DNA of 64,000 bases from NCBI GenBank assembly GCA_020632095.1, contig JACKGF010000001.1, positions 6,549-70,548 of the forward strand. Reading direction: 5' to 3'. A program made the position numbers and the translations under genes. The stretch comes from Candidatus Nomurabacteria bacterium. GTDB lineage: Bacteria > Patescibacteriota > Minisyncoccia > Phycocordibacterales > UBA918. Below are positions 14,458 through 25,089 of the stretch, one piece after another. The notes beneath the pieces were generated by a model. The model was not told the origin of the DNA, did not search any database, and saw nothing but the letters and a program-made list of their open reading frames with translations. Position 1 is the first letter of the stretch. Each line of letters starts with the position of its first letter.

Positions 14458-17130
14458 CTACAACACTTTTGGCTTTTTGTCCACTAGTTTCACTATGTAA
14501 GTATTAGCAAACCATTTAGCTCCCTCGACCACTAGAATGTTCAGAACACTCCAAAGCCCGATGAAACCAACCCAGTATAAAGATAGTGGTTGGACATTAA
14601 ATAGGTCTCGAATGTACGGGACGGTAAAAGTGATAATCATCATTAGTAGACCAACTCCAATTCCGAGTAACAAAAAACGGTTTTCAATTAATGAATAATG
14701 ATGAATTGGTCGGCTTAGGTCGCGGAAAGAGAAGGCAATGAATAAAGTATAGGTGCCAAAACTAGCAAATAAAATACTGCTTGCTAGAGCGTGTGGTACA
14801 TGGAAGGTGAGCAATCCTATATAAAGCCCGAAGAGCATCAACGAAACCATAATACCAATAAAGATAGTTAAGAACATTACCCGCGGGTCAAAGAATTGTT
14901 TATTGGTCGTTTCGGTCTCTTTCATTTTTTGGTTGTCAAAGGCAAAAGCAATGGCCGGTAAACTACCGGTAAAGAGATTAACCCAAATAATTTGCACAGC
15001 CGTAAGGGGCATGGCGACACCTGCGATAATTGCTCCGCCGATTAAAATTAATTCATCGAGTGAGTTAGACATTAGGTAAACAAACATTTTTTTAATGTTA
15101 GATAGTATTTGTTTGCCTTCTTCAATGGTGGATACAATGGTCTTAAAGTTATTGTCGAGTAGGATTAGGTCGGCTACACTCTTAGCGACATCGCTGCCAG
15201 AACCAAGTGCTATACCAATATTGGCTGCTTTAAGTGATGGGGCATCATTTACTCCATCACCAGTCATGGCGACAATTTCGCCTTGAGCCTGGTGGAGTTT
15301 AGTGATGCGAAGCTTGTCTTCAGGGGTAACCCGGGCGTAGATATGAATTCGGTCTAAGATTGGGATTAATTCAGCGTCAGTTAGTTGTTTGAGTTGGGAG
15401 CCGGTTAGGACGTTGGATTCGTCGACCTGCCAACCGAGTTCGTTGGCAATAGCGACAGCAGTGCCCGGTAGGTCGCCGGTTGCCATAATCACTCTCGTAC
15501 CATAGGAATTGATTCTTTTGAGGGCTTCTGGTACCTCGGGGCGGATAGGGTCATGGAAGCTAAGGACTCCAAGAAAGGTTATATCCTTAACATGATCAAT
15601 GGTCATGGAAGCAGGATCGGCGTGCGGAGTTAGTAAGCCAATACCAAGCACGCGACGACCATACTGACTATGTTCAGCGATTGATTTACTTAATTTATCA
15701 AAATCTTCATGGTCAAGAAAGGAGCGATTCAGCATAATATCAGGCGCACCCATAACAATGTGAGGGTCTTCAAATTGACTGAGATGATCTGGAAGGTAAC
15801 GGGTTGGAATTCTGATGACGGAAAATTTATACTTCGAACTAAAGGGAATTCGTATTTGAATATCAGAGCGGTCGGGCACGGTTTGGGTAATGTTATGTCT
15901 AGCGGCTGAGCGGACAATGTTGGTTTCCAGATCAGAACCACTTATCACCCAAGATTCTAAATCGTCCTCGGGATTTTCGATAGATACATCACTGGCACAA
16001 AGGGCCAAAGTTAGAATGTCTTGTTGCAGCTTGTTAAAATTGTCATGATGATCTGAGGGGGTAAAAGTAGGTTCGAGCAGTTGTTCAGTAGTGTCTATGT
16101 CGATTAGACGCATGTTGGCTTGGGTAAGCGTACCAGTTTTATCTGTGATAATGAGTGTTGTTGAACCCAGAGTTTCGGCGGCGGTTAAGCTTCGCATGAT
16201 ACCTTTTTTCTTAGCAATTCGGGTGACTCCAATCGCTAGAATTGAGGTTAGGCCAATTGGTAAGGCTTCCGGAACTGAACCAACAAATACCGCAATCGAA
16301 ACAATCAGCATCTCTGTTAACTCACGGTCTTGAGAAATACCGATAATAAACAATGCAAAAACAGCTATGACTGTGAAAGCAATAATCACCCAAGTGAGTT
16401 TGTTGAGAGCTTTTTGTAGGGGGGTTTGTTCAGATTCTGTGTCTTCAACTAATCTAGCTAGTTTACCTATTTCTGTATCGTAACCAGTGGCCGTAACAAC
16501 TGCATAAGCGGAACCACTAATCCCAAGTGTGCCAGCAAAAACCATGTTGGTTTGGTCTGGTAAGGGGGTGGTTTCAGATAACGGGCCGACTTCTTTTTCT
16601 ACTGGTAAAGATTCACCAGTCAGAATTGATTCATCAGAAGCGAAGTTTATTTCTTTGGTTATTCTAGCGTCAGCTGTAATCCGTGAGCCAGTAGTAATAT
16701 GGATAATATCACCGGGCACCAGTAGTCGTGGGTCAATCTCAAATTCGTGTCCATCACGGATTATTCTAGTACGGTGAGTGATATATGAGCGCAGGTCAGT
16801 AATGGCTTTTTCGGCCTTGAATTCCTGTACGAAGCCGAGAACGGCATTTACAATTACTGCAAAAGCAATAATGGTCATGTCTAGCCATTCTGCTAAGTAG
16901 GCAGTAATAGCGACGGCGACACAAAGAATAATGATTAATGGGCTGGCAAACTGTTGAAAAAATATTTCAATGGCCGTCTTACCTTTAGTAGACTCAAAAA
17001 TATTTTCGCCAGAGGATTTTAAGCGAGTTTTGGCTTCATCATCGCTCAGTCCTTTTTCTAGGTTGGTTTGTAATTGGGTGCCAATAGTGTCAAGTGGATC
17101 CGACCACGGATTATAAGGTTTTTGATACAT
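14458..17130 (-). CDS. P-type cation-transporting ATPase (P2-type)
   Basis: Phosphorylation site DKTGTLTQ, plus TGD and GDGVNDAPSLKAANIGIALG. There is an N-terminal cation-ATPase domain and 10 TM helices. Confidence 0.9.
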   Translation of the reverse strand: MYQKPYNPWSDPLDTIGTQLQTNLEKGLSDDEAKTRLKSSGENIFESTKGKTAIEIFFQQFASPLIIILCVAVAITAYLAEWLDMTIIAFAVIVNAVLGFVQEFKAEKAITDLRSYITHRTRIIRDGHEFEIDPRLLVPGDIIHITTGSRITADARITKEINFASDESILTGESLPVEKEVGPLSETTPLPDQTNMVFAGTLGISGSAYAVVTATGYDTEIGKLARLVEDTESEQTPLQKALNKLTWVIIAFTVIAVFALFIIGISQDRELTEMLIVSIAVFVGSVPEALPIGLTSILAIGVTRIAKKKGIMRSLTAAETLGSTTLIITDKTGTLTQANMRLIDIDTTEQLLEPTFTPSDHHDNFNKLQQDILTLALCASDVSIENPEDDLESWVISGSDLETNIVRSAARHNITQTVPDRSDIQIRIPFSSKYKFSVIRIPTRYLPDHLSQFEDPHIVMGAPDIMLNRSFLDHEDFDKLSKSIAEHSQYGRRVLGIGLLTPHADPASMTIDHVKDITFLGVLSFHDPIRPEVPEALKRINSYGTRVIMATGDLPGTAVAIANELGWQVDESNVLTGSQLKQLTDAELIPILDRIHIYARVTPEDKLRITKLHQAQGEIVAMTGDGVNDAPSLKAANIGIALGSGSDVAKSVADLILLDNNFKTIVSTIEEGKQILSNIKKMFVYLMSNSLDELILIGGAIIAGVAMPLTAVQIIWVNLFTGSLPAIAFAFDNQKMKETETTNKQFFDPRVMFLTIFIGIMVSLMLFGLYIGLLTFHVPHALASSILFASFGTYTLFIAFSFRDLSRPIHHYSLIENRFLLLGIGVGLLMMIITFTVPYIRDLFNVQPLSLYWVGFIGLWSVLNILVVEGAKWFANTYIVKLVDKKPKVL

Positions 17131-17202
17131 TAGTTAAGTGTAACAAATAATCCCGTGTCTAGAGTGAGTAACTGTTAGCTAATATGGTACACTTTTATTC
17201 AT

Positions 17203-17871
17203 ATGAAAAATCCATGGATAGTAATTGGGGTGATATTTGTAGTCTTGTTTGGAGGCGCAATTATGTATTCAAATATCTCTGCTAAGAAAAGTAATGAAGG
17301 AATTGTAATTAGTCAAAATATTAAAGGAAATCCTGAGGCGGAGGTTAAGTTGGTTGAATATAGTGATTTTCAGTGTCCAGCTTGTGCCTCCTTTCAGCCA
17401 GTTCTTGAGCAAGTAATGTCTGAGTATGGCGACAAAATTAGTTTCGAATATAAGCATTTTCCTTTGCCAATACACCCTTATGCTATGCCAGCAGCGGTAG
17501 CGGCTGAAGCGGCTGGTCAGCAGGGTAAATTCTTTGAATTCCATGATTTGTTGTTCAAAAACCAAAATACATGGGTTTCTGCTTCAGTGCCAAATTCATT
17601 ATTTATTCAGTATGCCGGTGAACTCGGCTTAGATATAGATAAGTTTAAAAGCCAGATGTCATCTACTATGCTGCGTGACCGAGTAAAGGACGATACTTCA
17701 GATGGACGAGCAGCTAACCTGACTGGCACACCAACTTTCTTTTTGAATGGCAAAAAGATGGAGTTTGACACTTTTCAAGCCTTTGTTGAGCAGATTGTAA
17801 AAGCGGTAGATCCGACTGCTCTAACGGCTTCTAGTACAGATTCAACTCCCGAGGTGAAGTTTGGTATTTAG
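17203..17871 (+). CDS. membrane-anchored DsbA-family thiol-disulfide oxidoreductase (CPAC)
   Basis: N-terminal TM helix, then a DsbA fold with the active site FQCPACASF. It is the first gene of the MATCAP-like/7TM/ATP-grasp operon, with a 23-bp gap to the next gene. Confidence 0.7.
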   Translation: MKNPWIVIGVIFVVLFGGAIMYSNISAKKSNEGIVISQNIKGNPEAEVKLVEYSDFQCPACASFQPVLEQVMSEYGDKISFEYKHFPLPIHPYAMPAAVAAEAAGQQGKFFEFHDLLFKNQNTWVSASVPNSLFIQYAGELGLDIDKFKSQMSSTMLRDRVKDDTSDGRAANLTGTPTFFLNGKKMEFDTFQAFVEQIVKAVDPTALTASSTDSTPEVKFGI

Positions 17872-17894
17872 TTAGACAAATAAGTGTATTTATT

Positions 17895-19166
17895 ATGAAT
17901 CAACCTGCTGTTTTTGATGAAGACTTGAGTTCATCCTTACGTAGGGTTGTTTCATATTTTGATGAAGACGAGTGGTTGTTGGACAATTTAAAAATTAAGT
18001 ATGAAGAAAAGGAACAGTTTTTGAACAATGAAATAGAAAACCCACAATTTAAATATAGACAACTCACACCTCATGTTGATTACACTCTAAGGCTTGATGA
18101 GTTTTACTACTGCATGAATCAATCACAGGCTCCATCGGTGGTGCTTGATCTGTATAGTCGTAAACTAGAGAAGCAGTTGTTGAGGAATGCTCTAATCGCT
18201 GCCTCGATTAGTAAGGATGATGAGTCTTTCTTTAGGGCTAGTTGTAGTCTTTATGGTAAGCCAAAGAAGAAGTATTTTTCTTACGTGGCTAAGAGATTAT
18301 TGATGCTCTGTGAGAGTAAAGGAGAGACTCATAAAGGTAGTGTTAGACGTTTGAAAAAGGTGGCTTCAAAAATTAATCATACACAAGTAGACATTGACGT
18401 GACAATGTTACCATCACCGATTACTACAGGTAGACAAATCAAATCGGTTAAAGAAGTAGAGAATATATTCAAGTCCACGCTTGAGCGCTGTGAAATTGTA
18501 GATTGGTCAGTTCAGGTGGATGAAACAAATACCAGAACTATTTTTGCTGTTAATCCACAGAAAAAGACTATATTTGTGCCGAGTGAGGAAAAGATATTTT
18601 CTAGACCTAAAGTTATGACAGATGTGGCTGTTCAGGCGTTGGCTGAACATGAAGTTGGTGTTCATGCTCGTCGCTATTTTGAGGCACAGAAGGGGCCATT
18701 AAAGATATTAGAAATTGGTCTAGATAGTTATTTGGCTGGTGAAGAAGGTTTGGCTAGTTATGTGCAACAGCAGATTGAAGGTTCTGATGAATTTTATGGT
18801 TTTGACCGATATTTGGCTGCTTGCTTGGCGGTGGGGATGGATGGTGAGGTGAGAGATTTTCGAGCGGTTTTTAGTTTGATGTTGGACTATTATACATTGG
18901 TTTTGGATGATAAAGATACAGATAAAATTGCAACTTATAATGCTGCTTGGGATGTCTGTGTAAGAATTTTTAGAGGGACTACAGGGCAGTCTGCGGGTTT
19001 AATATTTACTAAAGATATTGTCTACATGGAGGGGAATATTGGTATATGGAATTTGTTATCAGAAAAGCCACAAGTATTTGAGTCTTTATTCGTCGGGAAA
19101 TATAATCCACTTTTGTCAAGGCATGTCCAGACTTTACAAACGCTTGAAATTCTGGAACAGTGGTAG
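17895..19166 (+). CDS. DUF1704/MATCAP-like putative metallocarboxypeptidase (HExxxH + EEGLA motifs)
   Basis: AEHEVGVHARRYFEAQKGPLKILEIGLDSYLAGEEGLASYVQ carries an HExxxH motif followed by a QEGLA-like EEGLA motif. These are characteristic of the DUF1704 (TIGR02421 QEGLA-motif protein) family, which is homologous to the eukaryotic tubulin detyrosinase MATCAP. Assigned by recall of the motifs, not by search. Confidence 0.55.
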   Translation: MNQPAVFDEDLSSSLRRVVSYFDEDEWLLDNLKIKYEEKEQFLNNEIENPQFKYRQLTPHVDYTLRLDEFYYCMNQSQAPSVVLDLYSRKLEKQLLRNALIAASISKDDESFFRASCSLYGKPKKKYFSYVAKRLLMLCESKGETHKGSVRRLKKVASKINHTQVDIDVTMLPSPITTGRQIKSVKEVENIFKSTLERCEIVDWSVQVDETNTRTIFAVNPQKKTIFVPSEEKIFSRPKVMTDVAVQALAEHEVGVHARRYFEAQKGPLKILEIGLDSYLAGEEGLASYVQQQIEGSDEFYGFDRYLAACLAVGMDGEVRDFRAVFSLMLDYYTLVLDDKDTDKIATYNAAWDVCVRIFRGTTGQSAGLIFTKDIVYMEGNIGIWNLLSEKPQVFESLFVGKYNPLLSRHVQTLQTLEILEQW

Positions 19167-19167
19167 T

Positions 19168-20112
19168 ATGAAAAAAACATATTCAACAATTGTTACAATT
19201 GGTATTTTTGTGGCCTTACTGGTTTTGCCGTCATTTTCCTTTGCTCAGACGCCGGTTGGTCAGTTTGGTTTCAAAAATGATACCGCTCCAACCACGACCG
19301 AAGAACAGCCAGCATCCTCGACCGCAGTAACCGCTTCAACCACAGCTGCCAATATTATTAGCCAACAAGAAATATCGGCTCCCTCAAATGACCTTACACG
19401 GCCAGAGCAACTGCCAGAAAAAGTAGCGATTATTACTCTCTTTCAAGACCGTCCGGTCACTGAGTACAGTATTATCAATACAATGGCTTACTGGGTGCAG
19501 GAGTCAGTGCGCGATGGTGTACCAGCTAACACAATCTTTTTGATCTTACTTACACCATTGCTTGGTTTTTTGGTGAGTTTTGTACGGGTAGTGATTGGTT
19601 TGCCTACCTTGGACATGTTGGTACCAATCGCGTTAGCTTTTGCCTTTGTGGCGGTAGGAATCAACGTTGGTCTATTGGTGTTGGGAGCAATTTTGATAGC
19701 TTCATATATTTCAAAGAAATCATTGTCAAAGTTCAAGATTATGTTCTACCCGAAGCGTTCATTATCCATGGTTTTGTTAGCAATATCAGTTTTTGCAGCG
19801 CTTACTATAGGAGTCGGTCTCCATTTTGATCGTATTTTGAGTGTCTCTATTTTCCCGATTTTGGTGTTGATGTTACTTGGCGATATGATCGTGTCGGTAC
19901 AACTACACAAAAGTTCATTTGAAACTTTTGTCATTACTGGTACTACAATTGCGATTGGTTTGATTGGTTACTTTATGGCGACTAGTAATGCTATTCAAGG
20001 TACAGTAATTCTGTATCCGGAAATAATCCTGCTGGTTATTCCAGCTAATCTAGCTATTGGGCGATACTTTGGTTTGAGAATTCTCGAGTTGTTTCGCTTT
20101 AACAAAATCTAA
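19168..20112 (+). CDS. secreted-N-terminus 7-TM membrane protein (7TM_transglut-like, without the transglutaminase domain)
   Basis: ATG at 19168 lies 2 nt after the upstream stop (MKKTYSTIVTIGIFVALLVLPSFSFA signal). A Thr/Ala-rich low-complexity linker is followed by 7 predicted TM helices. Its position between a QEGLA-family gene and a RimK-related ATP-grasp gene mirrors the known 7TM-transglutaminase neighbourhood. Confidence 0.5.
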   Translation: MKKTYSTIVTIGIFVALLVLPSFSFAQTPVGQFGFKNDTAPTTTEEQPASSTAVTASTTAANIISQQEISAPSNDLTRPEQLPEKVAIITLFQDRPVTEYSIINTMAYWVQESVRDGVPANTIFLILLTPLLGFLVSFVRVVIGLPTLDMLVPIALAFAFVAVGINVGLLVLGAILIASYISKKSLSKFKIMFYPKRSLSMVLLAISVFAALTIGVGLHFDRILSVSIFPILVLMLLGDMIVSVQLHKSSFETFVITGTTIAIGLIGYFMATSNAIQGTVILYPEIILLVIPANLAIGRYFGLRILELFRFNKI

Positions 20113-20136
20113 ACTTACTAAATTAATCAATCTATT

Positions 20137-21429
20137 ATGGCAGTAAGTAATTCACTGTTAGGGATGAATGCTCGCAATTATCTCTATATTCAAAAGTTTA
20201 ATTCTAAACGAAATAAGCAAGTAGCTGATGACAAGTTGTTGACTAAAGAGCGGTTGTTGAAATTTGGTGTTCCAACTAATTCTTTTTTGGCAAAATTTTC
20301 TTCTCTACACGACGTTCGTGAATTTGACTGGAAATCACTCCCAACTGATTTTGCGATTAAACCTTCTCATGGTTATGGTGGTAGAGGAATATTTGTGGTG
20401 CGTAAGTGGGACGGAGAAAAAGGTTCGGCCGGGAAAGGTAAGCCAGTTGATATCCTTGAGTTGGAGCGAGTGATTTTTGGTGCGCTTGATGGTGAGCACT
20501 CACTTAACAATCTACCGGATACGGTTTTTATTGAAGAAAGAATTCGTTCTCATTCTTTTTTTAAAAAGTATATCCCTAAAGGGGTGCCAGATATTCGGTT
20601 AATTGTTTGTAATATGGTACCAGTGATGGCGATGATGCGTTTGCCAACGATATACTCAGAAGGAAAAGCCAACTTGCATATGGGTGCATTGGGGGTTGGA
20701 ATTGATCTTCGGACTGGAATTACTACTTCGGCGGTATTGAATAATAAACAGGTCTCAGTTATTCCAGGCGGAAAGATTAAAGTGCACGGTATAAGAATTC
20801 CAGATTGGGATAAAATTATGGAAATCGCTGTCCAAGCGCAACAATGTTCAAAACTTGGTTTTGCTGGGATTGATATTGTCTTAGATGAAAAATTAGGCCC
20901 CTTAGTATTGGAGGTTAATGCTAGACCTGGTTTAGGAATTCAGATTGCTAATCAAGCTTCGTTGCGAACCCGTCTAGAAAGAATTGCTGATTTGAAGGTC
21001 CAGACAGTTAGTCGGGGGGTTGAATTGGCGAAAAAGTTGTTTGCTGAAGAGTCACTAGAGGAAGTGAGTGAACAACAATCTACTTTGCTAGGTGTAATTG
21101 AAAAAATTACTATATTTGGAAATGATAAAAATAAGACAGTCAGAGCCAAGGTAGATACTGGTGCTTATCGAACTTCAATTGATAGTGATTTAGTAGAAGA
21201 ATTAGACTTGGACTCACATCATAAATTGATTCAGGTGCGTTCAGGTAGTGGAAGACAAAAAAGGCGTACAGTTAAATTGCGCTTTAAAATGAAAGGTAAG
21301 GAAATAGAGACAATTGCTACGTACACACCACGCGGCCACTTGCGTTTCCCTGTAATTATTGGTCGAAAGGACATGGGAGGATTTTTGGTTGATCCTAAAA
21401 GTATTCCGGAAGGGGTTTTGGTTAAGTAG
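20137..21429 (+). CDS. RimK-related ATP-grasp ligase (alpha-L-glutamate-ligase-like) fused to a C-terminal retropepsin-like aspartyl protease domain
   Basis: The N-terminus LLGMNARNYLYIQKFNSKRNKQVADDKLLTKERLLKFGVPT matches the TIGR02291 rimK-related ligase family, and ATP-grasp blocks are present (EVNARPGLG). The C-terminal 120 aa carry KVDTGAYRTSIDSDL...GRKDMGGFLVDP, a DTGA aspartyl-protease signature of the RimK-associated Zn_protease/retropepsin-like family. Confidence 0.7.
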   Translation: MAVSNSLLGMNARNYLYIQKFNSKRNKQVADDKLLTKERLLKFGVPTNSFLAKFSSLHDVREFDWKSLPTDFAIKPSHGYGGRGIFVVRKWDGEKGSAGKGKPVDILELERVIFGALDGEHSLNNLPDTVFIEERIRSHSFFKKYIPKGVPDIRLIVCNMVPVMAMMRLPTIYSEGKANLHMGALGVGIDLRTGITTSAVLNNKQVSVIPGGKIKVHGIRIPDWDKIMEIAVQAQQCSKLGFAGIDIVLDEKLGPLVLEVNARPGLGIQIANQASLRTRLERIADLKVQTVSRGVELAKKLFAEESLEEVSEQQSTLLGVIEKITIFGNDKNKTVRAKVDTGAYRTSIDSDLVEELDLDSHHKLIQVRSGSGRQKRRTVKLRFKMKGKEIETIATYTPRGHLRFPVIIGRKDMGGFLVDPKSIPEGVLVK

Positions 21430-21620
21430 TTAAGAACCTGTCCACACCTTTCCTCGGGGTCCCCAAGGGGCTAAAAACATGAGCTAAAATTGGGTAGGTA
21501 GTGGAAACAAACTTTAATTCGTTGAAGAAACATAAGTAATTTGTAGCCAAATTTTTAGACAATTACCTCGAATAAGTATTTTGTTATATTCCGTTTTGAG
21601 ATTGTGTAATAGTTGTGCAG

Positions 21621-21649
21621 AAAAGTGGCGAGCTTTGCTCGCCACTTTT
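21621..21649 (+). terminator. terminator-like hairpin downstream of the ATP-grasp gene
   Basis: AAAAGTGGCGAGC-ttt-GCTCGCCACTTTT followed by a T-rich stretch. It lies inside the N-terminal extension of the track ORF 21613. Confidence 0.5.
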
Positions 21650-21663
21650 GTTATTATAATGAC

Positions 21664-22473
21664 ATGTTTCGTACTAGGGATTTTATTCTTATTTTTGTCG
21701 CAGTAGTTTTCTTGGTGATGGCAATTGGTGCTACTTTATTAAGTCGGACTAATTTTTTTAAAGCTGGTTCGGAGGTAGTTATGATTACTGATAATGATGA
21801 TATAGAGTATGGGGCGACAGAGGTTATTCCAGAGAAAATTTCTCGAGCAGATCATTTGGCTTCGATGCGTGAGAAGATCGCTGCTGGTAAAGGAATAAGT
21901 ATATCGGCAGCAACTGAACCAATTATTGTTGAAGGTGAGAAAGAAGTAAGTGGTGAGGAAGATGAGAGTGTAGAGGAACAGGAAAAAGAAGTAGATGAAA
22001 TGCTTTGTGCTAGTTATACTAAATATAAGGGTGCATGGTCACCGTTTGGTCTCCAGACTGAAGTAACTGAAGGAGCCAGGGTTTTTTTCTTCGAGACAAT
22101 AGCTGGTTATGAGGTGACGGAGGCTACTTCGTCTGCTGATAGGGTGATGGCTCAGCCTATGAAAAAAGACGTAGTCTTGCAACTGCCAGTTAGATCCTTG
22201 CCAGTTGGTATGCCAACTTGTTTGTACTCTGATGTGGTTGGAATTGCTCAAGACGGATCTTTGATACGCAATAATGAGGTTGGTTTGTATTCAGTCTTTG
22301 GCTCCGACACTTTGATTGGTTATGCTTTCGATGGTTTTCCGATTTATGGAAAAGTTAAGGAGTCTGGTGATAAGTGTGGCGGGTCAGTAGTAAATGGTCA
22401 ATATCGTTATTCTTTGTCAGATCAGCGCGAGTTTATCTTAAATTGTTTTTCTGCCCCACCAGTTAGAATGTAA
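21664..22473 (+). CDS. hypothetical membrane-anchored acidic protein
   Basis: Start moved to ATG 21664 (MFRTRDFILIFVAVVFLV, a TM anchor) because the upstream part of the track ORF overlaps a terminator hairpin. There is an acidic E-rich linker. No known domain. Confidence 0.5.
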   Translation: MFRTRDFILIFVAVVFLVMAIGATLLSRTNFFKAGSEVVMITDNDDIEYGATEVIPEKISRADHLASMREKIAAGKGISISAATEPIIVEGEKEVSGEEDESVEEQEKEVDEMLCASYTKYKGAWSPFGLQTEVTEGARVFFFETIAGYEVTEATSSADRVMAQPMKKDVVLQLPVRSLPVGMPTCLYSDVVGIAQDGSLIRNNEVGLYSVFGSDTLIGYAFDGFPIYGKVKESGDKCGGSVVNGQYRYSLSDQREFILNCFSAPPVRM

Positions 22474-22480
22474 AATTTGT

Positions 22481-23212
22481 ATGTCTACGCTGATTTTAGA
22501 TATTGAAACAGTCGGGCATAAGTGGGAAGATATTGACGAGATTACTAGAGAGTCATTGACTAAACAAATTAGTGGTGTTGATTCAAAGAAAGAAAAAGAG
22601 TCTAAATTACTTGATGTAAAGAATCGCCTGGCCTTGTTTCCTTTTACAGGATCGATTGTGTCACTAGCTATTTATGATTTGGAGCGCTCGCTCGGCGCAG
22701 TTTATTACGTGTCAGATACACTAGGAGAGACTTTTTCTGACGAAACTTTTACTTATAAGGAAAGAACCGAGTCTGAAATACTGGAAGATTTTTGGGAAGG
22801 AGCGCTCGAGTATGATACTTTTGTAAGTTTTAACGGGCGCAGTTTTGATATGCCATTCATTCTTCACCGGTCAGTGGTAAATGAGGTTCGGCCGACGGTA
22901 GATATTGCACAGGGCAGGTATTTGAGTAAGCAGACTATTCCTTATCACGTTGATTTACTAGATGAGTTAACTTTTTACGGAGCGATGCAAAAGCGACCGT
23001 CACTACATCAAGTATGTGTGACTTACGGGATTGAGAGTCCTAAGGCTGGTGGGGTGAGCGGGGAAGATGTCGCGGAACTTTTTCTCCAGAAAAAGTTCCG
23101 CGACATCGCCACCTACAACGCCCGCGACGTCATCGCCATCACCACCCTCTATAAAAAATGGAAAACCTACCTAGCCCCCGCCAGCTTTATTAATAGTACG
23201 GAGATGTTATAA
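22481..23212 (+). CDS. RNase-H-like 3'-5' exonuclease-fold protein (DEDD-like, PolB-exonuclease-related)
   Basis: Exo I-like ILDIETVG and Exo II-like SFNGRSFDMPFI blocks, with a C-terminal YNARDV. Confidence 0.5.
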   Translation: MSTLILDIETVGHKWEDIDEITRESLTKQISGVDSKKEKESKLLDVKNRLALFPFTGSIVSLAIYDLERSLGAVYYVSDTLGETFSDETFTYKERTESEILEDFWEGALEYDTFVSFNGRSFDMPFILHRSVVNEVRPTVDIAQGRYLSKQTIPYHVDLLDELTFYGAMQKRPSLHQVCVTYGIESPKAGGVSGEDVAELFLQKKFRDIATYNARDVIAITTLYKKWKTYLAPASFINSTEML

Positions 23213-23223
23213 AAACTTTAAAT

Positions 23224-25089
23224 TTGGTAAACTTAATAGATATGGAAAAAATACCTGTCACTGTAAATTCGTTGTATCCAGAGCGACCTTCTAGCAATAT
23301 TGCTGTCAAAGTAGAAAATTTAGAAAAGTTCGTTTCGGGTGAAGTACCTGTCTGGGAAATACCTGAAGCGGAGCGTGCCGAAATTCTAGAAATTGAGGCT
23401 GGTTTAGCAAAAGTTCTGGAAGACGTTGTTGCTATCAAAACAAAAAGCGTCTCATTTAATTTTAACTATTTACTTTCTGTCGAAGGAGGTAATGATTTTG
23501 AAGCGGTTGTAGGAGTAAAGATTCCTCCTGAGGCGCAGGATTTTGATAGTTTAAAGAATTTTTTATATACCCAAACCAGTGTACTTAATGGGAGTAACTA
23601 TAAAAAAATATTAGACTTAGCTGGTCGATCAGTTTCTTATCGGGAAGATGAAATATACCAATCTATCACAAGCTCAATGTCCGAGGACGGAAATGTTGAT
23701 ACAAGCAATATCCCGTCAAGCGATTCTGTGAACATAAGATTGACTCCAGAACTTGATTATGGAAAGTCAACTCTCCTTAGGCAGCTGAAAGCAGATATAA
23801 AACAACAACGTGAACAACTTGCCTCCTCTGATCAGGGAGAAACTTATAAAGCATTTCTAGATGGTATTTTTGACTTATACCAAAGAAAAGTAAACGAGAT
23901 GATTGCAGAAAGTTCAACCGTATTTCTAAGTTTGGCAAAAAAAGCTGATTTTGTAGGAGAGGAATCTTTAACCGAAGACGAAAAGAAAGCTTATGATGAG
24001 GATACTATCGGAAGTAATGTGTCGGCAAACCTAAGTCGTTATGACAAATTTTTATTTGGTGCAGATACTGATTATGCCGATGACGGTTGGAAAAAACAAA
24101 TATCTGCGGAACTCATTGAGTACGCAGATGAACAGGAAAGAAAAATAATTGCAGAGAGCCAAGAAAAGAGTGCTGGCATCGCCGAGAAGGGTCTTGATGA
24201 GGATAAGTTGTTTGCTTTAACCATCGAACCAGCCGAGATAGGCAGTCTCTGTGAAGAGGCCCTAGCCCATTATGATTTATTGAGTGCTGTTCCTCCTTCT
24301 GAATATGTCGCCAACCGACCGGGGCCAGCGGAGGACAATAAATGGCAAGTAATCGTTAGTGATTCCTTCAAGTCACTTAGTGTAAACGGGACTCAAAAAG
24401 TTATAAAATGCCCAAATAAGCCTCAGTCAGTAGATAAGTTAATCAGTGTATCAATCGGTCACGAAATCGAGGGACACGCTATTCAACATAATAATCTCTC
24501 GAAAATACCACTTAAGTTATTTGAAAAGGTGGGCACAGACCGCTCATCAATTTTTGCGGAAGCTGGTGCTATGAGTAATCAAGATTATGTGACAAAAAGC
24601 GCTTTTGGTTATAGCTCTAGTCCCCATCCGAACTACATCAGGGCAATGGCGACTAAGCTTGAAGGAGGGGATTACTCAGATTGTTTGAAAGCCTTTTATG
24701 AAAGTGCCACCAAACCCCATCAAGCACAGCTAGAAGGTGGTCTAATTGATCAAGAAAAATTCAAAAAACTTTGTGAGAAAGATCTTAAGATTGCAATTAA
24801 TCGAACCGGAAGATTGTTCAGAGGTGGCATGAGTCGGTCTGACACATCAGGCTTCATAGCTGAAAGTAAGGCTACTGTTTATGTGGAGCAAACCAAGCTG
24901 GCGGCTGAGTTGAAAGAAAGAGGTTTAGAGAAGTTTTTGTATCTAACTAGAGTTAACTTTTCCTCTATCGAGTTCCTATTGCGAGCCGGATTAATAAATC
25001 TAGACGATATTCAAACCCCAGATTTTTACTGTCTGAAAATATGGGACAGAATTAAGTCAAGATACGAAAAGGAGCCAGTAGCAGATTAG
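23224..25089 (+). CDS. diverged DUF1704/MATCAP-like paralog with a 390-aa acidic N-terminal extension
   Basis: The C-terminal region GHEIEGHAIQHNNLSKIPLKLFEKVGTDRSSIFAEAGAMSNQ aligns position-for-position with HEVGVHARRYFEAQKGPLKILEIGLDSYLAGEEGLASYVQ of the 17895 gene (HExxxHA, PLK(I/L), xAxEGxA). Confidence 0.45.
   Translation: MVNLIDMEKIPVTVNSLYPERPSSNIAVKVENLEKFVSGEVPVWEIPEAERAEILEIEAGLAKVLEDVVAIKTKSVSFNFNYLLSVEGGNDFEAVVGVKIPPEAQDFDSLKNFLYTQTSVLNGSNYKKILDLAGRSVSYREDEIYQSITSSMSEDGNVDTSNIPSSDSVNIRLTPELDYGKSTLLRQLKADIKQQREQLASSDQGETYKAFLDGIFDLYQRKVNEMIAESSTVFLSLAKKADFVGEESLTEDEKKAYDEDTIGSNVSANLSRYDKFLFGADTDYADDGWKKQISAELIEYADEQERKIIAESQEKSAGIAEKGLDEDKLFALTIEPAEIGSLCEEALAHYDLLSAVPPSEYVANRPGPAEDNKWQVIVSDSFKSLSVNGTQKVIKCPNKPQSVDKLISVSIGHEIEGHAIQHNNLSKIPLKLFEKVGTDRSSIFAEAGAMSNQDYVTKSAFGYSSSPHPNYIRAMATKLEGGDYSDCLKAFYESATKPHQAQLEGGLIDQEKFKKLCEKDLKIAINRTGRLFRGGMSRSDTSGFIAESKATVYVEQTKLAAELKERGLEKFLYLTRVNFSSIEFLLRAGLINLDDIQTPDFYCLKIWDRIKSRYEKEPVAD

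What the first reader, a model, noticed from the sequence alone, without database searches (positions are those of the whole stretch)
20137..21429. ATP-grasp peptide ligase and retropepsin-like DTGA protease encoded as a single polypeptide
In most bacteria the RimK-associated aspartyl protease (Zn_protease/DUF785 family) is a separate small gene next to rimK. Here the C-terminal about 120 aa of the ATP-grasp ORF contains KVDTGAYRTSID...GRKDMGGFLVDP, with no intervening stop. A covalent ligase-protease fusion suggests tightly coupled tail addition and processing, or self-processing of the enzyme.
Basis: seen in the sequence. Interest (0 to 1): 0.6.

Follow-up and report, generated by a model that had tools for sequence, protein, structure and literature searches.

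The report
Ligase–retropepsin fusion enzyme of Patescibacteria
One gene really does encode an ATP-dependent peptide ligase joined to a small HIV-protease-like enzyme; this is the normal, conserved form in a large group of tiny uncultured bacteria, a rearranged version of the recently described Rlo/Rim "add and trim glutamate tails" systems.

Summary
Window 20137..21429 (+) is one uninterrupted 430-aa ORF. Residues 1-303 are an RloC-type ATP-grasp ligase (PF14397, E 4e-65), residues 304-320 an acidic flexible linker, and residues 321-430 a retropepsin-like domain (model pLDDT 92). The best structural matches of that domain are RloA, Lpg0085 and HIV-1 protease. It is not a sequencing artefact. 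The same one-ORF architecture occurs in 83 of 86 related loci (40-87% identity) from many Patescibacteria lineages, and the catalytic residues of both domains are nearly invariant.

The ligase is the "alpha-L-glutamate ligase-like" RloC type. Its constant partner is a 7TM membrane protein encoded directly upstream (RloB-like, but without the transglutaminase ectodomain). In this lineage a MATCAP/DUF1704 carboxypeptidase gene precedes that.

Ligase-protease fusions are already known (RimBK, 2025), but with the opposite domain order and a true RimK. In other lineages the same protease domain is fused to the outer side of the 7TM protein, so it sits across the membrane from the ligase. Here both are cytoplasmic.

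Verdict: a real, new variant of a known kind. The biochemistry is inferred only. Moderate interest.

The parts
20137..21429 (+). Single ORF (430 aa plus stop) encoding the ATP-grasp ligase / retropepsin fusion
   Evidence: The identical protein is GenBank MCA9357105.1, annotated 'aspartyl protease family protein'.
20137..21045 (+). ATP-grasp ligase domain, aa 1-303, RloC / PF14397 / TIGR02291 type
   Evidence: PF14397 E 4.4e-65. TIGR02291 scores 253.8 bits. Foldseek best matches are ArgX, LysX, RimK and cyanophycin synthetase. It is 38% identical to the 314-aa Legionella 'alpha-L-glutamate ligase-like protein', and that protein's C-terminus aligns to LFA303. K75, E133, D246, E259, N261 and R263 are conserved in 76-81 of 81 homologs.
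21046..21096 (+). Acidic, low-confidence linker, aa 304-320 (EESLEEVSEQQSTLLGV)
   Evidence: pLDDT is below 50 at aa 311-314. Positions 304, 305, 307, 308, 309 and 311 are acidic in 40-68% of 81 homologs, and many lineages have GGE[IV]EEE[LV]EE[IV]SG.
21097..21426 (+). Retropepsin-like (clan AA) aspartic protease domain, aa 321-430
   Evidence: Model pLDDT 91.8. Foldseek finds 2pma, 9g58 and 9g59 (RloA) at E about 1e-7, then HIV-1 protease at TM-score 0.6-0.68 normalised to the 99-residue protease and rmsd 2.4-3.1 A. The profile-to-PDB sequence search agrees. The domain has pI about 10 and net charge +9.
21154..21165 (+). Catalytic D340-T341-G342-A343 motif
   Evidence: D is present in 81 of 81 homologs, T in 79, G in 80 and A in 80. 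K338, two residues upstream, corresponds to the substrate-contact residue K46 of RloA.
21355..21372 (+). IIGRKD motif (aa 407-412), the retropepsin hydrophobic-hydrophobic-Gly signature
   Evidence: G409 is present in 81 of 81 homologs. R410 is R, K or H in 79 of 81. D412 is D or N in 81 of 81.
19168..20112 (+). Upstream partner gene: signal peptide, about 100 aa of low-complexity ectodomain, then a 7TM_transglut domain (RloB-like, no transglutaminase domain)
   Evidence: PF14402 E 7e-20. NF052267 RloB matches only positions 313-503 of 508. The protein aligns to aa 306-501 of the Legionella inactive-transglutaminase protein. A homolog lies directly upstream of the fusion in 83 of 86 loci.
17895..19166 (+). 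MATCAP / DUF1704 / QEGLA-family metallopeptidase gene (HEVGVH and EEGLAS motifs), first gene of the three-gene cluster in this lineage
   Evidence: PF08014 E 1.3e-24. TIGR02421 scores 94.8 bits. It is found next to the 7TM gene in close relatives and in 14 of 86 loci by tblastn. In the 800-aa protein P0173 it is fused to the ligase-retropepsin.
17203..17871 (+). DsbA/thioredoxin-like gene on the same strand, 24 nt upstream of the MATCAP-like gene; peripheral, probably co-transcribed
   Evidence: PF13462 E 1e-28. It is conserved next to the cluster only in close relatives, 9 of 86 loci.
21621..21649 (+). Terminator-like hairpin (13 base pairs followed by a T-rich tail) that probably ends the operon
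   Evidence: This is a consensus match only.

Best explanation
The ORF encodes a genuine, conserved, cytoplasmic bifunctional enzyme, and I read it as a writer-eraser pair. The N-terminal RloC-type ATP-grasp amidoligase most likely builds an acidic, probably alpha-glutamyl, peptide chain or tail using ATP. The C-terminal RloA/RimB-type retropepsin domain most likely cuts such poly-acidic chains. To do so it must pair with the same domain of a second subunit to form the two-aspartate active site, presumably brought together by oligomerisation of the ligase. Fusion fixes a 1:1 ratio and keeps the trimming enzyme at the site of synthesis. This parallels the non-covalent RimK-RimB complex, in which the protease both trims Glu tails and stimulates the ligase. 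The enzyme works with the 7TM membrane protein encoded directly upstream, which I take to be the acceptor, exporter or sensor of the product. In this lineage it also works with a MATCAP-like carboxypeptidase, which would nibble the same tails from the C-terminus. Shown here: ORF continuity, the identity and fold of both domains, conservation of the catalytic and substrate-contact residues, conserved synteny, and alternative fusions of the same parts. Inferred: glutamate as the substrate, both enzyme activities, dimerisation, and the role of the 7TM protein.
For: The ORF and its domains are established. The two-domain model has pLDDT 85.5 with a flexible linker. The ligase domain resembles ArgX, LysX and RimK and is 38% identical to a canonical rlo-operon ligase. 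The protease domain resembles RloA, Lpg0085 and HIV protease. The Mg/ATP-site residues, DTGA and IIGRxD are nearly invariant in 81 homologs. Residues K46, R114 and R137 are needed by RloA for poly-Glu cleavage (PMC12239564). By the alignments they correspond to K338, R376 and R399, conserved in 79 or more of 81 homologs. The protease domain has pI about 10. The 7TM gene is adjacent in 83 of 86 loci. Rosetta-stone fusions link all the parts: retropepsin+7TM (12 representatives), retropepsin+7TM+ligase (P0153), and ligase+retropepsin+MATCAP (P0173). Experimental precedents exist. RimB cleaves Glu tails and stimulates RimK, and the RimBK hybrid is proteolytically active. Deleting rloB or rloC suppresses the rloA1-3 defect. 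MATCAP-family enzymes remove C-terminal Glu and polyglutamylation.
Against: No biochemistry exists for any member of this fused family. The TIGR02291 score (253.8 bits) is below its equivalog cut-off (314.2), so ligase specificity is not established. Pfam names PF14397 'sugar-transfer associated', and no substrate of RloC is known even in Pseudomonas. In Pseudomonas, and in the retropepsin-7TM fusions, the protease is outside the membrane. A cytoplasmic protease may therefore have a different target here. No poly-Glu or poly-Asp run of 5 or more is encoded anywhere in the window, so no candidate substrate is visible. Dimerisation of the tethered protease domains was not modelled.
Confidence: 0.62

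Rival explanations
1. Self-processing polyprotein. The retropepsin cuts the acidic linker in cis or trans, as retroviral proteases excise themselves. This would release a free RloC-like ligase (about 34 kDa) and a free RimB-like protease (about 12-14 kDa). On this view the fusion is only a way to co-express and time the activation of two separate enzymes.
For: The linker is flexible (pLDDT below 50). It is acidic in character across 81 homologs, with many lineages carrying E[IV]EEE[LV]EE. It lies immediately upstream of a protease predicted to prefer acidic substrates. The canonical unfused ligase ends exactly at the LFA motif that precedes the linker. Retropepsins are classic autoprocessors (established knowledge).
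Against: The longest acidic run in any linker is 4 residues, and 2 in the window. RloA needs 8 or more consecutive Glu and is blocked by interrupting residues. The linker sequence is poorly conserved within the window's own clade. The related RimBK hybrid was purified and assayed as a hybrid protein. The hydrophobic i/i+4 spacing of the linker also fits a simple amphipathic helix.
Confidence: 0.15
2. The retropepsin domain is mainly a regulatory or substrate-holding module. It would bind the growing acidic chain, or allosterically activate the ligase as RimB does for RimK, and proteolysis would be secondary or lost. The acidic linker would act as a pseudo-substrate that occupies the basic cleft until product displaces it.
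For: RimB binds RimK and stimulates its ATPase and poly-Glu synthesis. The linker is acidic and the domain is basic. The RimBK hybrid showed protease activity but no RpsF glutamylation, so coupling can be unusual.
Against: D340, T341, G342, A343 and G409 are essentially invariant over sequences down to 40% identity. That is hard to explain without catalysis.
Confidence: 0.13
3. Artefact: a lost stop codon, a frameshift or a mis-assembly joined two adjacent genes in this assembly.
For: None found. One relative (L071) does have a frame break between the domains.
Against: The identical protein was seen on 3 contigs from several sources. All 80 of the best-matching species-level genome loci cover about aa 1-420. 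In 83 of 86 loci the two domains are in one frame with no stop. The linker length is conserved at 71-80 residues between NARPG and DTG.
Confidence: 0.01
4. The ligase does not make a glutamate peptide. It amidates a cell-envelope glycan or lipid, or ligates another amino acid, and the protease processes an unrelated protein such as the 7TM partner or a secreted precursor.
For: Pfam names PF14397 'sugar-transfer associated'. The equivalog cut-offs are not reached. rlo mutants have envelope phenotypes: osmotic sensitivity, altered cell shape and beta-lactam sensitivity. Membrane-vesicle overproduction was seen in Shewanella.
Against: The closest solved folds are amino-acid and peptide ligases (ArgX, LysX, RimK, cyanophycin synthetase). 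The RloA poly-Glu contact residues are conserved in the fused protease. The module co-occurs with, and is sometimes fused to, a MATCAP-type carboxypeptidase.
Confidence: 0.09

Closest known systems
rloABC operon of Pseudomonas aeruginosa (Lormand et al. 2025, PMC12239564); a canonical example is on Legionella adelaidensis plasmid 5 (L091)
   Same: The same three kinds of part are present. The ATP-grasp is 38% identical end-to-end. The retropepsin matches at E 5e-11 pairwise, with RloA crystal structures as top fold matches. The 7TM domain matches at E 1e-14. The 7TM gene precedes the ligase gene in both.
   Different: Here the protease has no signal peptide and is fused to the C-terminus of the cytoplasmic ligase, so it cannot be secreted. 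The 7TM protein lacks the inactive transglutaminase ectodomain. A MATCAP-like peptidase gene is added. The host is Patescibacteria, whereas 96% of RloB hits were reported in Proteobacteria.
RimK-RimB system and the natural RimBK hybrid (Desulfotalea psychrophila DP2392; Little et al. 2025, PMC11957791)
   Same: A cytoplasmic ATP-grasp Glu ligase is paired with a retropepsin-like protease that cuts Glu tails. In RimBK the two are covalently fused, and the hybrid is proteolytically active.
   Different: The domain order is reversed: protease at residues 1-163 then RimK, against ligase then protease here. The ligase is true RimK, whereas the window protein scores only 51 bits on the RimK family model against a cut-off of 143. 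RimBK has no 7TM partner and is found mainly in Flavobacteriales and Rhodobacterales.
Tubulin tyrosination/glutamylation cycle (TTL/TTLL ATP-grasp ligases against MATCAP/TMCP and CCP carboxypeptidases)
   Same: The logic is the same: an ATP-grasp ligase adds C-terminal residues and peptidases remove them. The neighbouring gene is a true homolog of MATCAP, with PF08014 and the HExxxH and EEGLA motifs.
   Different: This system is bacterial and linked to a membrane protein, it adds an aspartic endopeptidase, and its substrate is unknown.
Retroviral Gag-Pro-Pol polyproteins
   Same: A retropepsin monomer is embedded in a larger polypeptide and must dimerise to become active.
   Different: No evidence of autoprocessing was found here. 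The fusion partner is a ligase that probably makes the protease's substrate.

Membership tests
ATP-grasp superfamily, PF14397 (ATPgrasp_ST) / RloC-like clade | Pfam model score above the gathering threshold | tested here: met
   220.1 bits against a cut-off of 31.4, aa 13-283.
ATP-grasp superfamily, PF14397 (ATPgrasp_ST) / RloC-like clade | ATP-grasp fold and conserved ATP/Mg2+ site (Lys, and the Asp/Glu/Asn triad with Arg in NARPG) | tested here: met
   Foldseek finds ArgX, LysX and RimK at E about 1e-10. K75, D246 and E259 are present in 81 of 81 homologs, N261 in 80 of 81 and R263 in 76 of 81.
TIGR02291 'alpha-L-glutamate ligase-like protein' (hypothetical equivalog) | Score at or above the NCBIfam cut-off of 314.2 bits | tested here: not met
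   253.8 bits, E 1.9e-75, covering positions 11-295 of 317. It is a clear relative, 38% identical to an annotated member, but below the equivalog threshold.
RimK (S6:Glu ligase; TIGR00768 / PRK10446) | Full-length match above the family cut-off | tested here: not met
   51.2 bits against 143.4, and 25.5 bits against 331. Only about 40 residues around the NARPG motif align.
Clan AA retropepsin-like aspartic peptidases | Asp-Thr/Ser-Gly-Ala/Ser active-site motif plus the C-terminal hydrophobic-hydrophobic-Gly motif | tested here: met
   D340-T-G-A and I407-I-G-R-K-D are present and nearly invariant in 81 homologs.
Clan AA retropepsin-like aspartic peptidases | Retropepsin fold | tested here: met
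   Model pLDDT 91.8. Foldseek matches 2pma, 9g58, 9g59 and many HIV-1 protease chains, the latter at TM-score 0.6-0.68 normalised to the 99-residue protease and rmsd 2.4-3.1 A. PF13650 scores 31.9 bits, above its cut-off of 24.3.
Clan AA retropepsin-like aspartic peptidases | Homodimer that forms the two-Asp active site | not testable with these tools
   No multimer prediction was available. Dimerisation is inferred from the family.
RloA (secreted retropepsin-like osmotic-stress peptidase) / PF05618 RimB-like | Family model above cut-off | tested here: not met
   PF05618 scores 25.2 bits against 27. NF052264 RloA3 scores 32.4 against 210, and RloA2 20.6 against 250. The domain is a homolog (profile E 6e-12 to 9g59) but not an equivalog.
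RloA (secreted retropepsin-like osmotic-stress peptidase) / PF05618 RimB-like | N-terminal signal peptide and extracytoplasmic location | tested here: not met
   The domain follows a 300-aa ATP-dependent domain, and the 430-aa protein has no hydrophobic segment.
RloA (secreted retropepsin-like osmotic-stress peptidase) / PF05618 RimB-like | Basic substrate-contact residues for poly-Glu (K46, R114, R137 of RloA) | tested here: met
   By the HMMER alignments these map to K338, R376 and R399. They are conserved in 80, 79 and 81 of 81 homologs. The numbering transfer assumes equal spacing between RloA orthologs.
rlo operon (RloA + RloB + RloC) | RloB: 7TM domain with an N-terminal inactive transglutaminase ectodomain | tested here: not met
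   The 7TM part is present (PF14402, 72 bits). The ectodomain is about 100 aa of low-complexity sequence. Matches to RloB and to the Legionella homolog cover only their C-terminal 200 residues.
RimBK hybrid | RimB domain N-terminal to a RimK domain | tested here: not met
   The order here is ligase then protease, and the ligase is not RimK.

The most novel reading that the evidence does not exclude
The fusion may be a self-regulated writer-eraser enzyme. Its conserved acidic linker would be a built-in pseudo-substrate or self-cleavage site for the attached poly-acid-specific protease. With the 7TM protein it would form a minimal machine that makes an acidic peptide in the cytoplasm, sizes it, and passes it across or into the membrane. 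The same protease domain is wired to the outside of the 7TM protein in other phyla but to the inside here. If the product is the protease's substrate, this would mean the product is accessible on both faces of the membrane. That in turn would identify the 7TM_transglut domain as its conduit, and would give the still-unknown Rlo product a tractable single-polypeptide model.
Probability: 0.15. Interest if true: 0.7.

Novelty: new variant of a known kind. Interest (0 to 1): 0.45.

Why it matters
The Rlo system was described only in 2025. It affects osmotic tolerance, biofilm formation, cell shape and antibiotic sensitivity in Pseudomonas, but the product of its ligase and the role of its membrane protein are unknown. 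The Patescibacteria version reduces the system to two genes: a 7TM protein, and one polypeptide that carries both ligase and protease. That makes a convenient in vitro handle for finding out what the ligase makes and what the protease cuts. The comparative pattern adds two things. The protease is fused to the ligase on the inside here, to the 7TM ectodomain on the outside elsewhere, and all three parts sit in one chain in P0153. This is strong Rosetta-stone evidence that the parts act on one pathway. It also raises a concrete topological question about where the substrate lives. Finally, it extends the family far beyond Proteobacteria and links it to bacterial MATCAP homologs.

Tried and rejected
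- Sequencing or assembly artefact: rejected on conservation.
- Membership in RimK proper: rejected on NCBIfam and PDB scores.
- Fold search with the full-length model returned only ATP-grasp enzymes. The C-terminal domain therefore had to be modelled separately.
- A single-sequence PDB search with the C-terminal domain was only marginal (E 0.007). A profile was needed.
- Rfam scan of 16900-22000 found nothing above chance.
- A search for encoded poly-Glu or poly-Asp runs of 5 or more in the window, as candidate substrates, found none.
- A search for a second retropepsin or RloC-like gene in the window found none.
- No further ATP-grasp genes lie downstream in the window, unlike locus L087.
- The afdb50 fold library was unavailable.
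- Iyer et al. 2009 (PMC3268129) first described these ATP-grasp / 7TM-transglutaminase / protease neighbourhoods. It is not held, so I could not check whether it already lists this architecture.
- Literature searches for the Patescibacteria fusion found nothing specific.
- The taxonomy of MAGs labelled 'uncultured Gammaproteobacteria', 'Bdellovibrionales' or 'Pseudomonadales' that carry the fusion was not verified.
Full report
**Observation.** Window 20137..21429 (+) is a single ATG-initiated ORF of 430 codons with no internal stop. Pfam places ATPgrasp_ST (PF14397) on aa 13-283 (E 4.4e-65). It places Asp_protease_2 (PF13650) on aa 330-391 (31.9 bits, above the 24.3 cut-off). Zn_protease/RimB-like (PF05618) falls just below its cut-off (25.2 against 27). 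NCBIfam gives TIGR02291 'alpha-L-glutamate ligase-like protein' at 253.8 bits (below the 314 equivalog cut-off). The RimK family model scores only 51 bits, and the RloA3 and RloA2 models give weak hits.

**The fusion is real.**
- The identical protein is in GenBank as MCA9357105.1 / MCB9813802.1, 'aspartyl protease family protein', from Candidatus Nomurabacteria/Kaiserbacteria MAGs.
- The 120 best-scoring homolog clusters are almost all 420-430 aa and 58-87% identical, and each carries Pfam hits to both domain types.
- A scan of one genome per species found 494 candidate relatives. All 80 of the best cover query residues 1 to about 420 at 40-83% identity. They come from Nomura-, Kaiser-, Pacei-, Roizman-, Levy-, Woese-, Moran-, Andersen- and Beckwithbacteria and Saccharimonadales.
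- In 83 of 86 related loci the two domains are in one frame with no stop. One exception (L071) has a frame break, and two lack a detectable protease hit.

**Domain anatomy.**
- AlphaFold2 with 51 homologs gives mean pLDDT 85.5 for two confident domains. A weak segment spans residues about 303-320, with pLDDT below 50 at 311-314.
- The full-length model matches ArgX, LysX, RimK, cyanophycin synthetase and Ddl.
- The C-terminal 125 residues, modelled with 65 diverse homologs, reach pLDDT 91.8. Their best matches are Lpg0085 (2pma) and the two RloA crystal structures 9g58 and 9g59 (E about 1e-7). Dozens of HIV-1 protease chains follow, at TM-score 0.6-0.68 normalised to the 99-residue protease and rmsd 2.4-3.1 A.
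- A sequence profile of the domain finds 9g59 (6e-12), 9g58, 2pma, Ddi1, foamy-virus protease, ApRick, and the HTLV, FIV and HIV proteases.
- The second refutation (not a retropepsin fold) therefore also fails.
- Across 81 distinct fused homologs, the ATP-grasp residues K75, E133, D246, E259, N261 and R263 are present in 76-81 sequences. The protease residues D340, T341, G342, A343 and G409 are present in 79-81, and position 412 is D or N in all 81.
- The protein has no hydrophobic segment, so it is cytoplasmic. The protease domain is strongly basic, with pI about 10 and net charge +9.

**Which system it belongs to.** The ligase is not RimK.
- On a Legionella adelaidensis plasmid there is a canonical three-gene operon. 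It encodes a retropepsin, an 'inactive transglutaminase family protein' (508 aa) and an 'alpha-L-glutamate ligase-like protein' (314 aa).
- The window ligase domain is 38% identical to the 314-aa ligase from end to end (E 6e-65). That protein's C-terminus ('...EMFA') aligns exactly to LFA303, the point where the window's linker begins.
- The window protease domain matches the Legionella retropepsin (E 5e-11).
- The gene directly upstream of the fusion (19168..20112) matches only the C-terminal 7TM half (aa 306-501) of the 508-aa protein. It has PF14402 7TM_transglut but no transglutaminase domain.
- This three-gene layout is the rloABC arrangement described in Pseudomonas aeruginosa in 2025. 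RloA is a secreted retropepsin that cleaves runs of 8 or more Glu. RloB is an inactive-transglutaminase 7TM protein. RloC is a cytoplasmic ATP-grasp protein. Loss of rloB or rloC suppresses the osmotic, biofilm and shape defects of the triple protease mutant (PMC12239564).
- By tblastn a 7TM homolog lies immediately upstream of the fusion in 83 of 86 loci. The conserved core is therefore two genes: the 7TM protein plus the ligase-protease fusion.
- In the window's lineage a MATCAP/DUF1704/QEGLA metallopeptidase gene (17895..19166; HEVGVH and EEGLAS motifs) precedes them. This holds even where the outer flanks differ; by tblastn it was detected in 14 of 86 loci.
- A DsbA-like gene and a terminator-like hairpin at 21621-21649 bracket the probable operon.

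**Prior knowledge of such fusions.** Little et al. [quoted passage not shown] It removes Glu tails from RpsF and stimulates RimK. They also described a natural hybrid, RimBK, from Desulfotalea. Its RimB domain occupies residues 1-163, N-terminal to RimK. It occurs in 12% of rim-bearing genomes and is proteolytically active. A covalent ligase-retropepsin enzyme is thus already a known kind. The window protein differs in domain order, in ligase subfamily, in its 7TM partner and in host phylum. I found no paper that describes it. The 2009 survey by Iyer et al., which first described these neighbourhoods, is not held.

**Comparative result that goes beyond the finding.** An exhaustive search with the protease domain alone returned 581 cluster representatives. 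They fall into several architectures:
- Standalone proteins of about 105-160 aa.
- Tandem doubles.
- Ligase-retropepsin fusions like the window's (P0121, P0141, P0160, P0177, P0254 by Pfam; in P0205 Pfam finds only the ATP-grasp domain, and the protease domain is supported by the phmmer match at residues 316-428).
- Retropepsin-7TM fusions. All 12 checked representatives with an N-terminal protease domain are of this kind. One (P0212) is from Chloroflexota. In P0144's locus an unfused 288-aa ligase gene follows directly.
- One ligase-retropepsin-MATCAP triple fusion (P0173, 800 aa, from a CPR metagenome).
- One all-in-one protein (P0153, 657 aa): TM anchor, retropepsin, 7TM, then ATP-grasp.

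In P0153 there are eight hydrophobic spans in all, and the ligase must face the ATP-containing cytoplasm. The protease must therefore face outward. This agrees with secreted RloA. In the window's architecture the protease is necessarily inside. The same protease family has thus been wired to opposite faces of the membrane in different lineages.

**Mechanism.** I commit to a writer-eraser model. The ATP-grasp domain builds an acidic (most likely alpha-glutamyl) chain or tail. The tethered retropepsin dimerises through ligase oligomerisation and cuts that chain, controlling its length or turnover and possibly stimulating the ligase as RimB does. The MATCAP-like enzyme trims from the C-terminus. 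Its eukaryotic homologs remove C-terminal Tyr and Glu and also polyglutamylation (PMC10499314). The 7TM protein receives, exports or senses the product.

Supporting evidence:
- RloA residues K46, R114 and R137, needed for poly-Glu cleavage, correspond to K338, R376 and R399 by the alignments. All three are nearly invariant.
- The protease domain is basic.
- The Rosetta-stone fusions described above link all the parts.

None of the activities has been measured. TIGR02291 specificity is unproven, and the RloC product is unknown even in Pseudomonas.

**Linker and self-processing.** The linker is acidic in character across the family. Positions 304-311 are acidic in 40-68% of 81 homologs, and many lineages read GGE[IV]EEE[LV]EE[IV]SG. 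However, the longest acidic run in any linker is 4 residues (2 in the window), far short of the 8 consecutive Glu that RloA requires. The i/i+4 hydrophobic pattern also fits a plain amphipathic helix. I give self-processing about 15%.

**Verdict.** It is a new variant of the Rlo/Rim ligase-protease kind rather than a new kind. Interest is moderate. It offers a compact model for an unsolved 2025 system and raises a clear topological puzzle, but it rests entirely on inference from homologs.

Noticed in passing
P0153 (657 aa), P0144/L089, P0212, P0221: The same retropepsin domain is fused to the N-terminal, outward-facing end of the 7TM_transglut domain in other lineages (12 of 12 checked; one is from Chloroflexota). 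In P0153 a TM anchor, retropepsin, 7TM and ATP-grasp form a single chain. There the protease faces outside and the ligase inside, the opposite of the window's all-cytoplasmic fusion.
   Followed up: partly
P0173 (800 aa, GenBank EKD49309.1), locus L087 1870-10678: A triple fusion of ATP-grasp, retropepsin and MATCAP, misannotated as 'ketopantoate hydroxymethyltransferase'. Its locus also holds a PKD-PKD-7TM_transglut gene, three more ATP-grasp genes and a second MATCAP gene, making a much larger peptide-ligase cluster.
   Followed up: partly
window 21046-21096 (fusion aa 304-320): The inter-domain linker is conserved in acidic character, with hydrophobic residues at i/i+4. Many lineages read GGE[IV]EEE[LV]EE[IV]SG. 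It could be a pseudo-substrate, a cleavage site or an amphipathic helix.
   Followed up: partly
window 23224-25089 (+), 621 aa: This ORF has no Pfam or NCBIfam hit. It carries HEIEGH (an HExxxH motif) and AEAGAMS, which align with the HEVGVH and EEGLAS motifs of the MATCAP-like protein at 17895-19166 (BLASTP E 0.006). It may be a very divergent second MATCAP-like peptidase, three genes downstream of the fusion. A homolog was seen in only one other locus (L070).
   Followed up: partly
window 21613-21666: The mechanical TTG start (21613) of the downstream ORF overlaps the 13-bp terminator-like hairpin at 21621-21649. The real start is probably the ATG at 21664 (MFRTRDF...).
   Followed up: partly
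L091 2987-3445 (Legionella adelaidensis plasmid 5, WP_232048481.1): The retropepsin gene of this canonical rlo-type operon is annotated 'RimK/LysX family protein' and starts at an internal Met. An in-frame upstream ATG adds MRLVLFFIFSWTFLCGS, a signal-peptide-like (possibly lipoprotein) leader. The RefSeq start is therefore probably too short and the name is misleading.
   Followed up: partly
L017, L023-L025, L029, L031-L035, L050, L052, L058, L072, L084 and others: Many MAGs that carry the fused gene are labelled 'uncultured Gammaproteobacteria', 'Bdellovibrionales' or 'Pseudomonadales' (TPA assemblies, 33-43% GC). Their 7TM neighbour is the short Patescibacteria type. The labels look doubtful but were not checked.
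   Followed up: no
L071 5001-6262 (Candidatus Paceibacterota AC1.72): This is the only relative in which the ligase and protease parts are in different frames with stops between them. It is a likely assembly error or pseudogene.
   Followed up: no
window 14458-17871 and loci L001, L002, L007-L009: A divergently transcribed P-type cation ATPase (890 aa) and a DsbA-like gene flank the module in the closest relatives only. The PolB-exonuclease-like gene (22481-23212) and the 286-aa ORF downstream are conserved in the same subset. This is local synteny rather than part of the core module.
   Followed up: partly
H3, CP007061.1 Halobacterium sp. DL1 plasmid, 106116-107015: An archaeal plasmid encodes a 37%-identical homolog of the ligase domain (aa 5-300 only). 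The RloC-type ligase therefore reaches Archaea.
   Followed up: no
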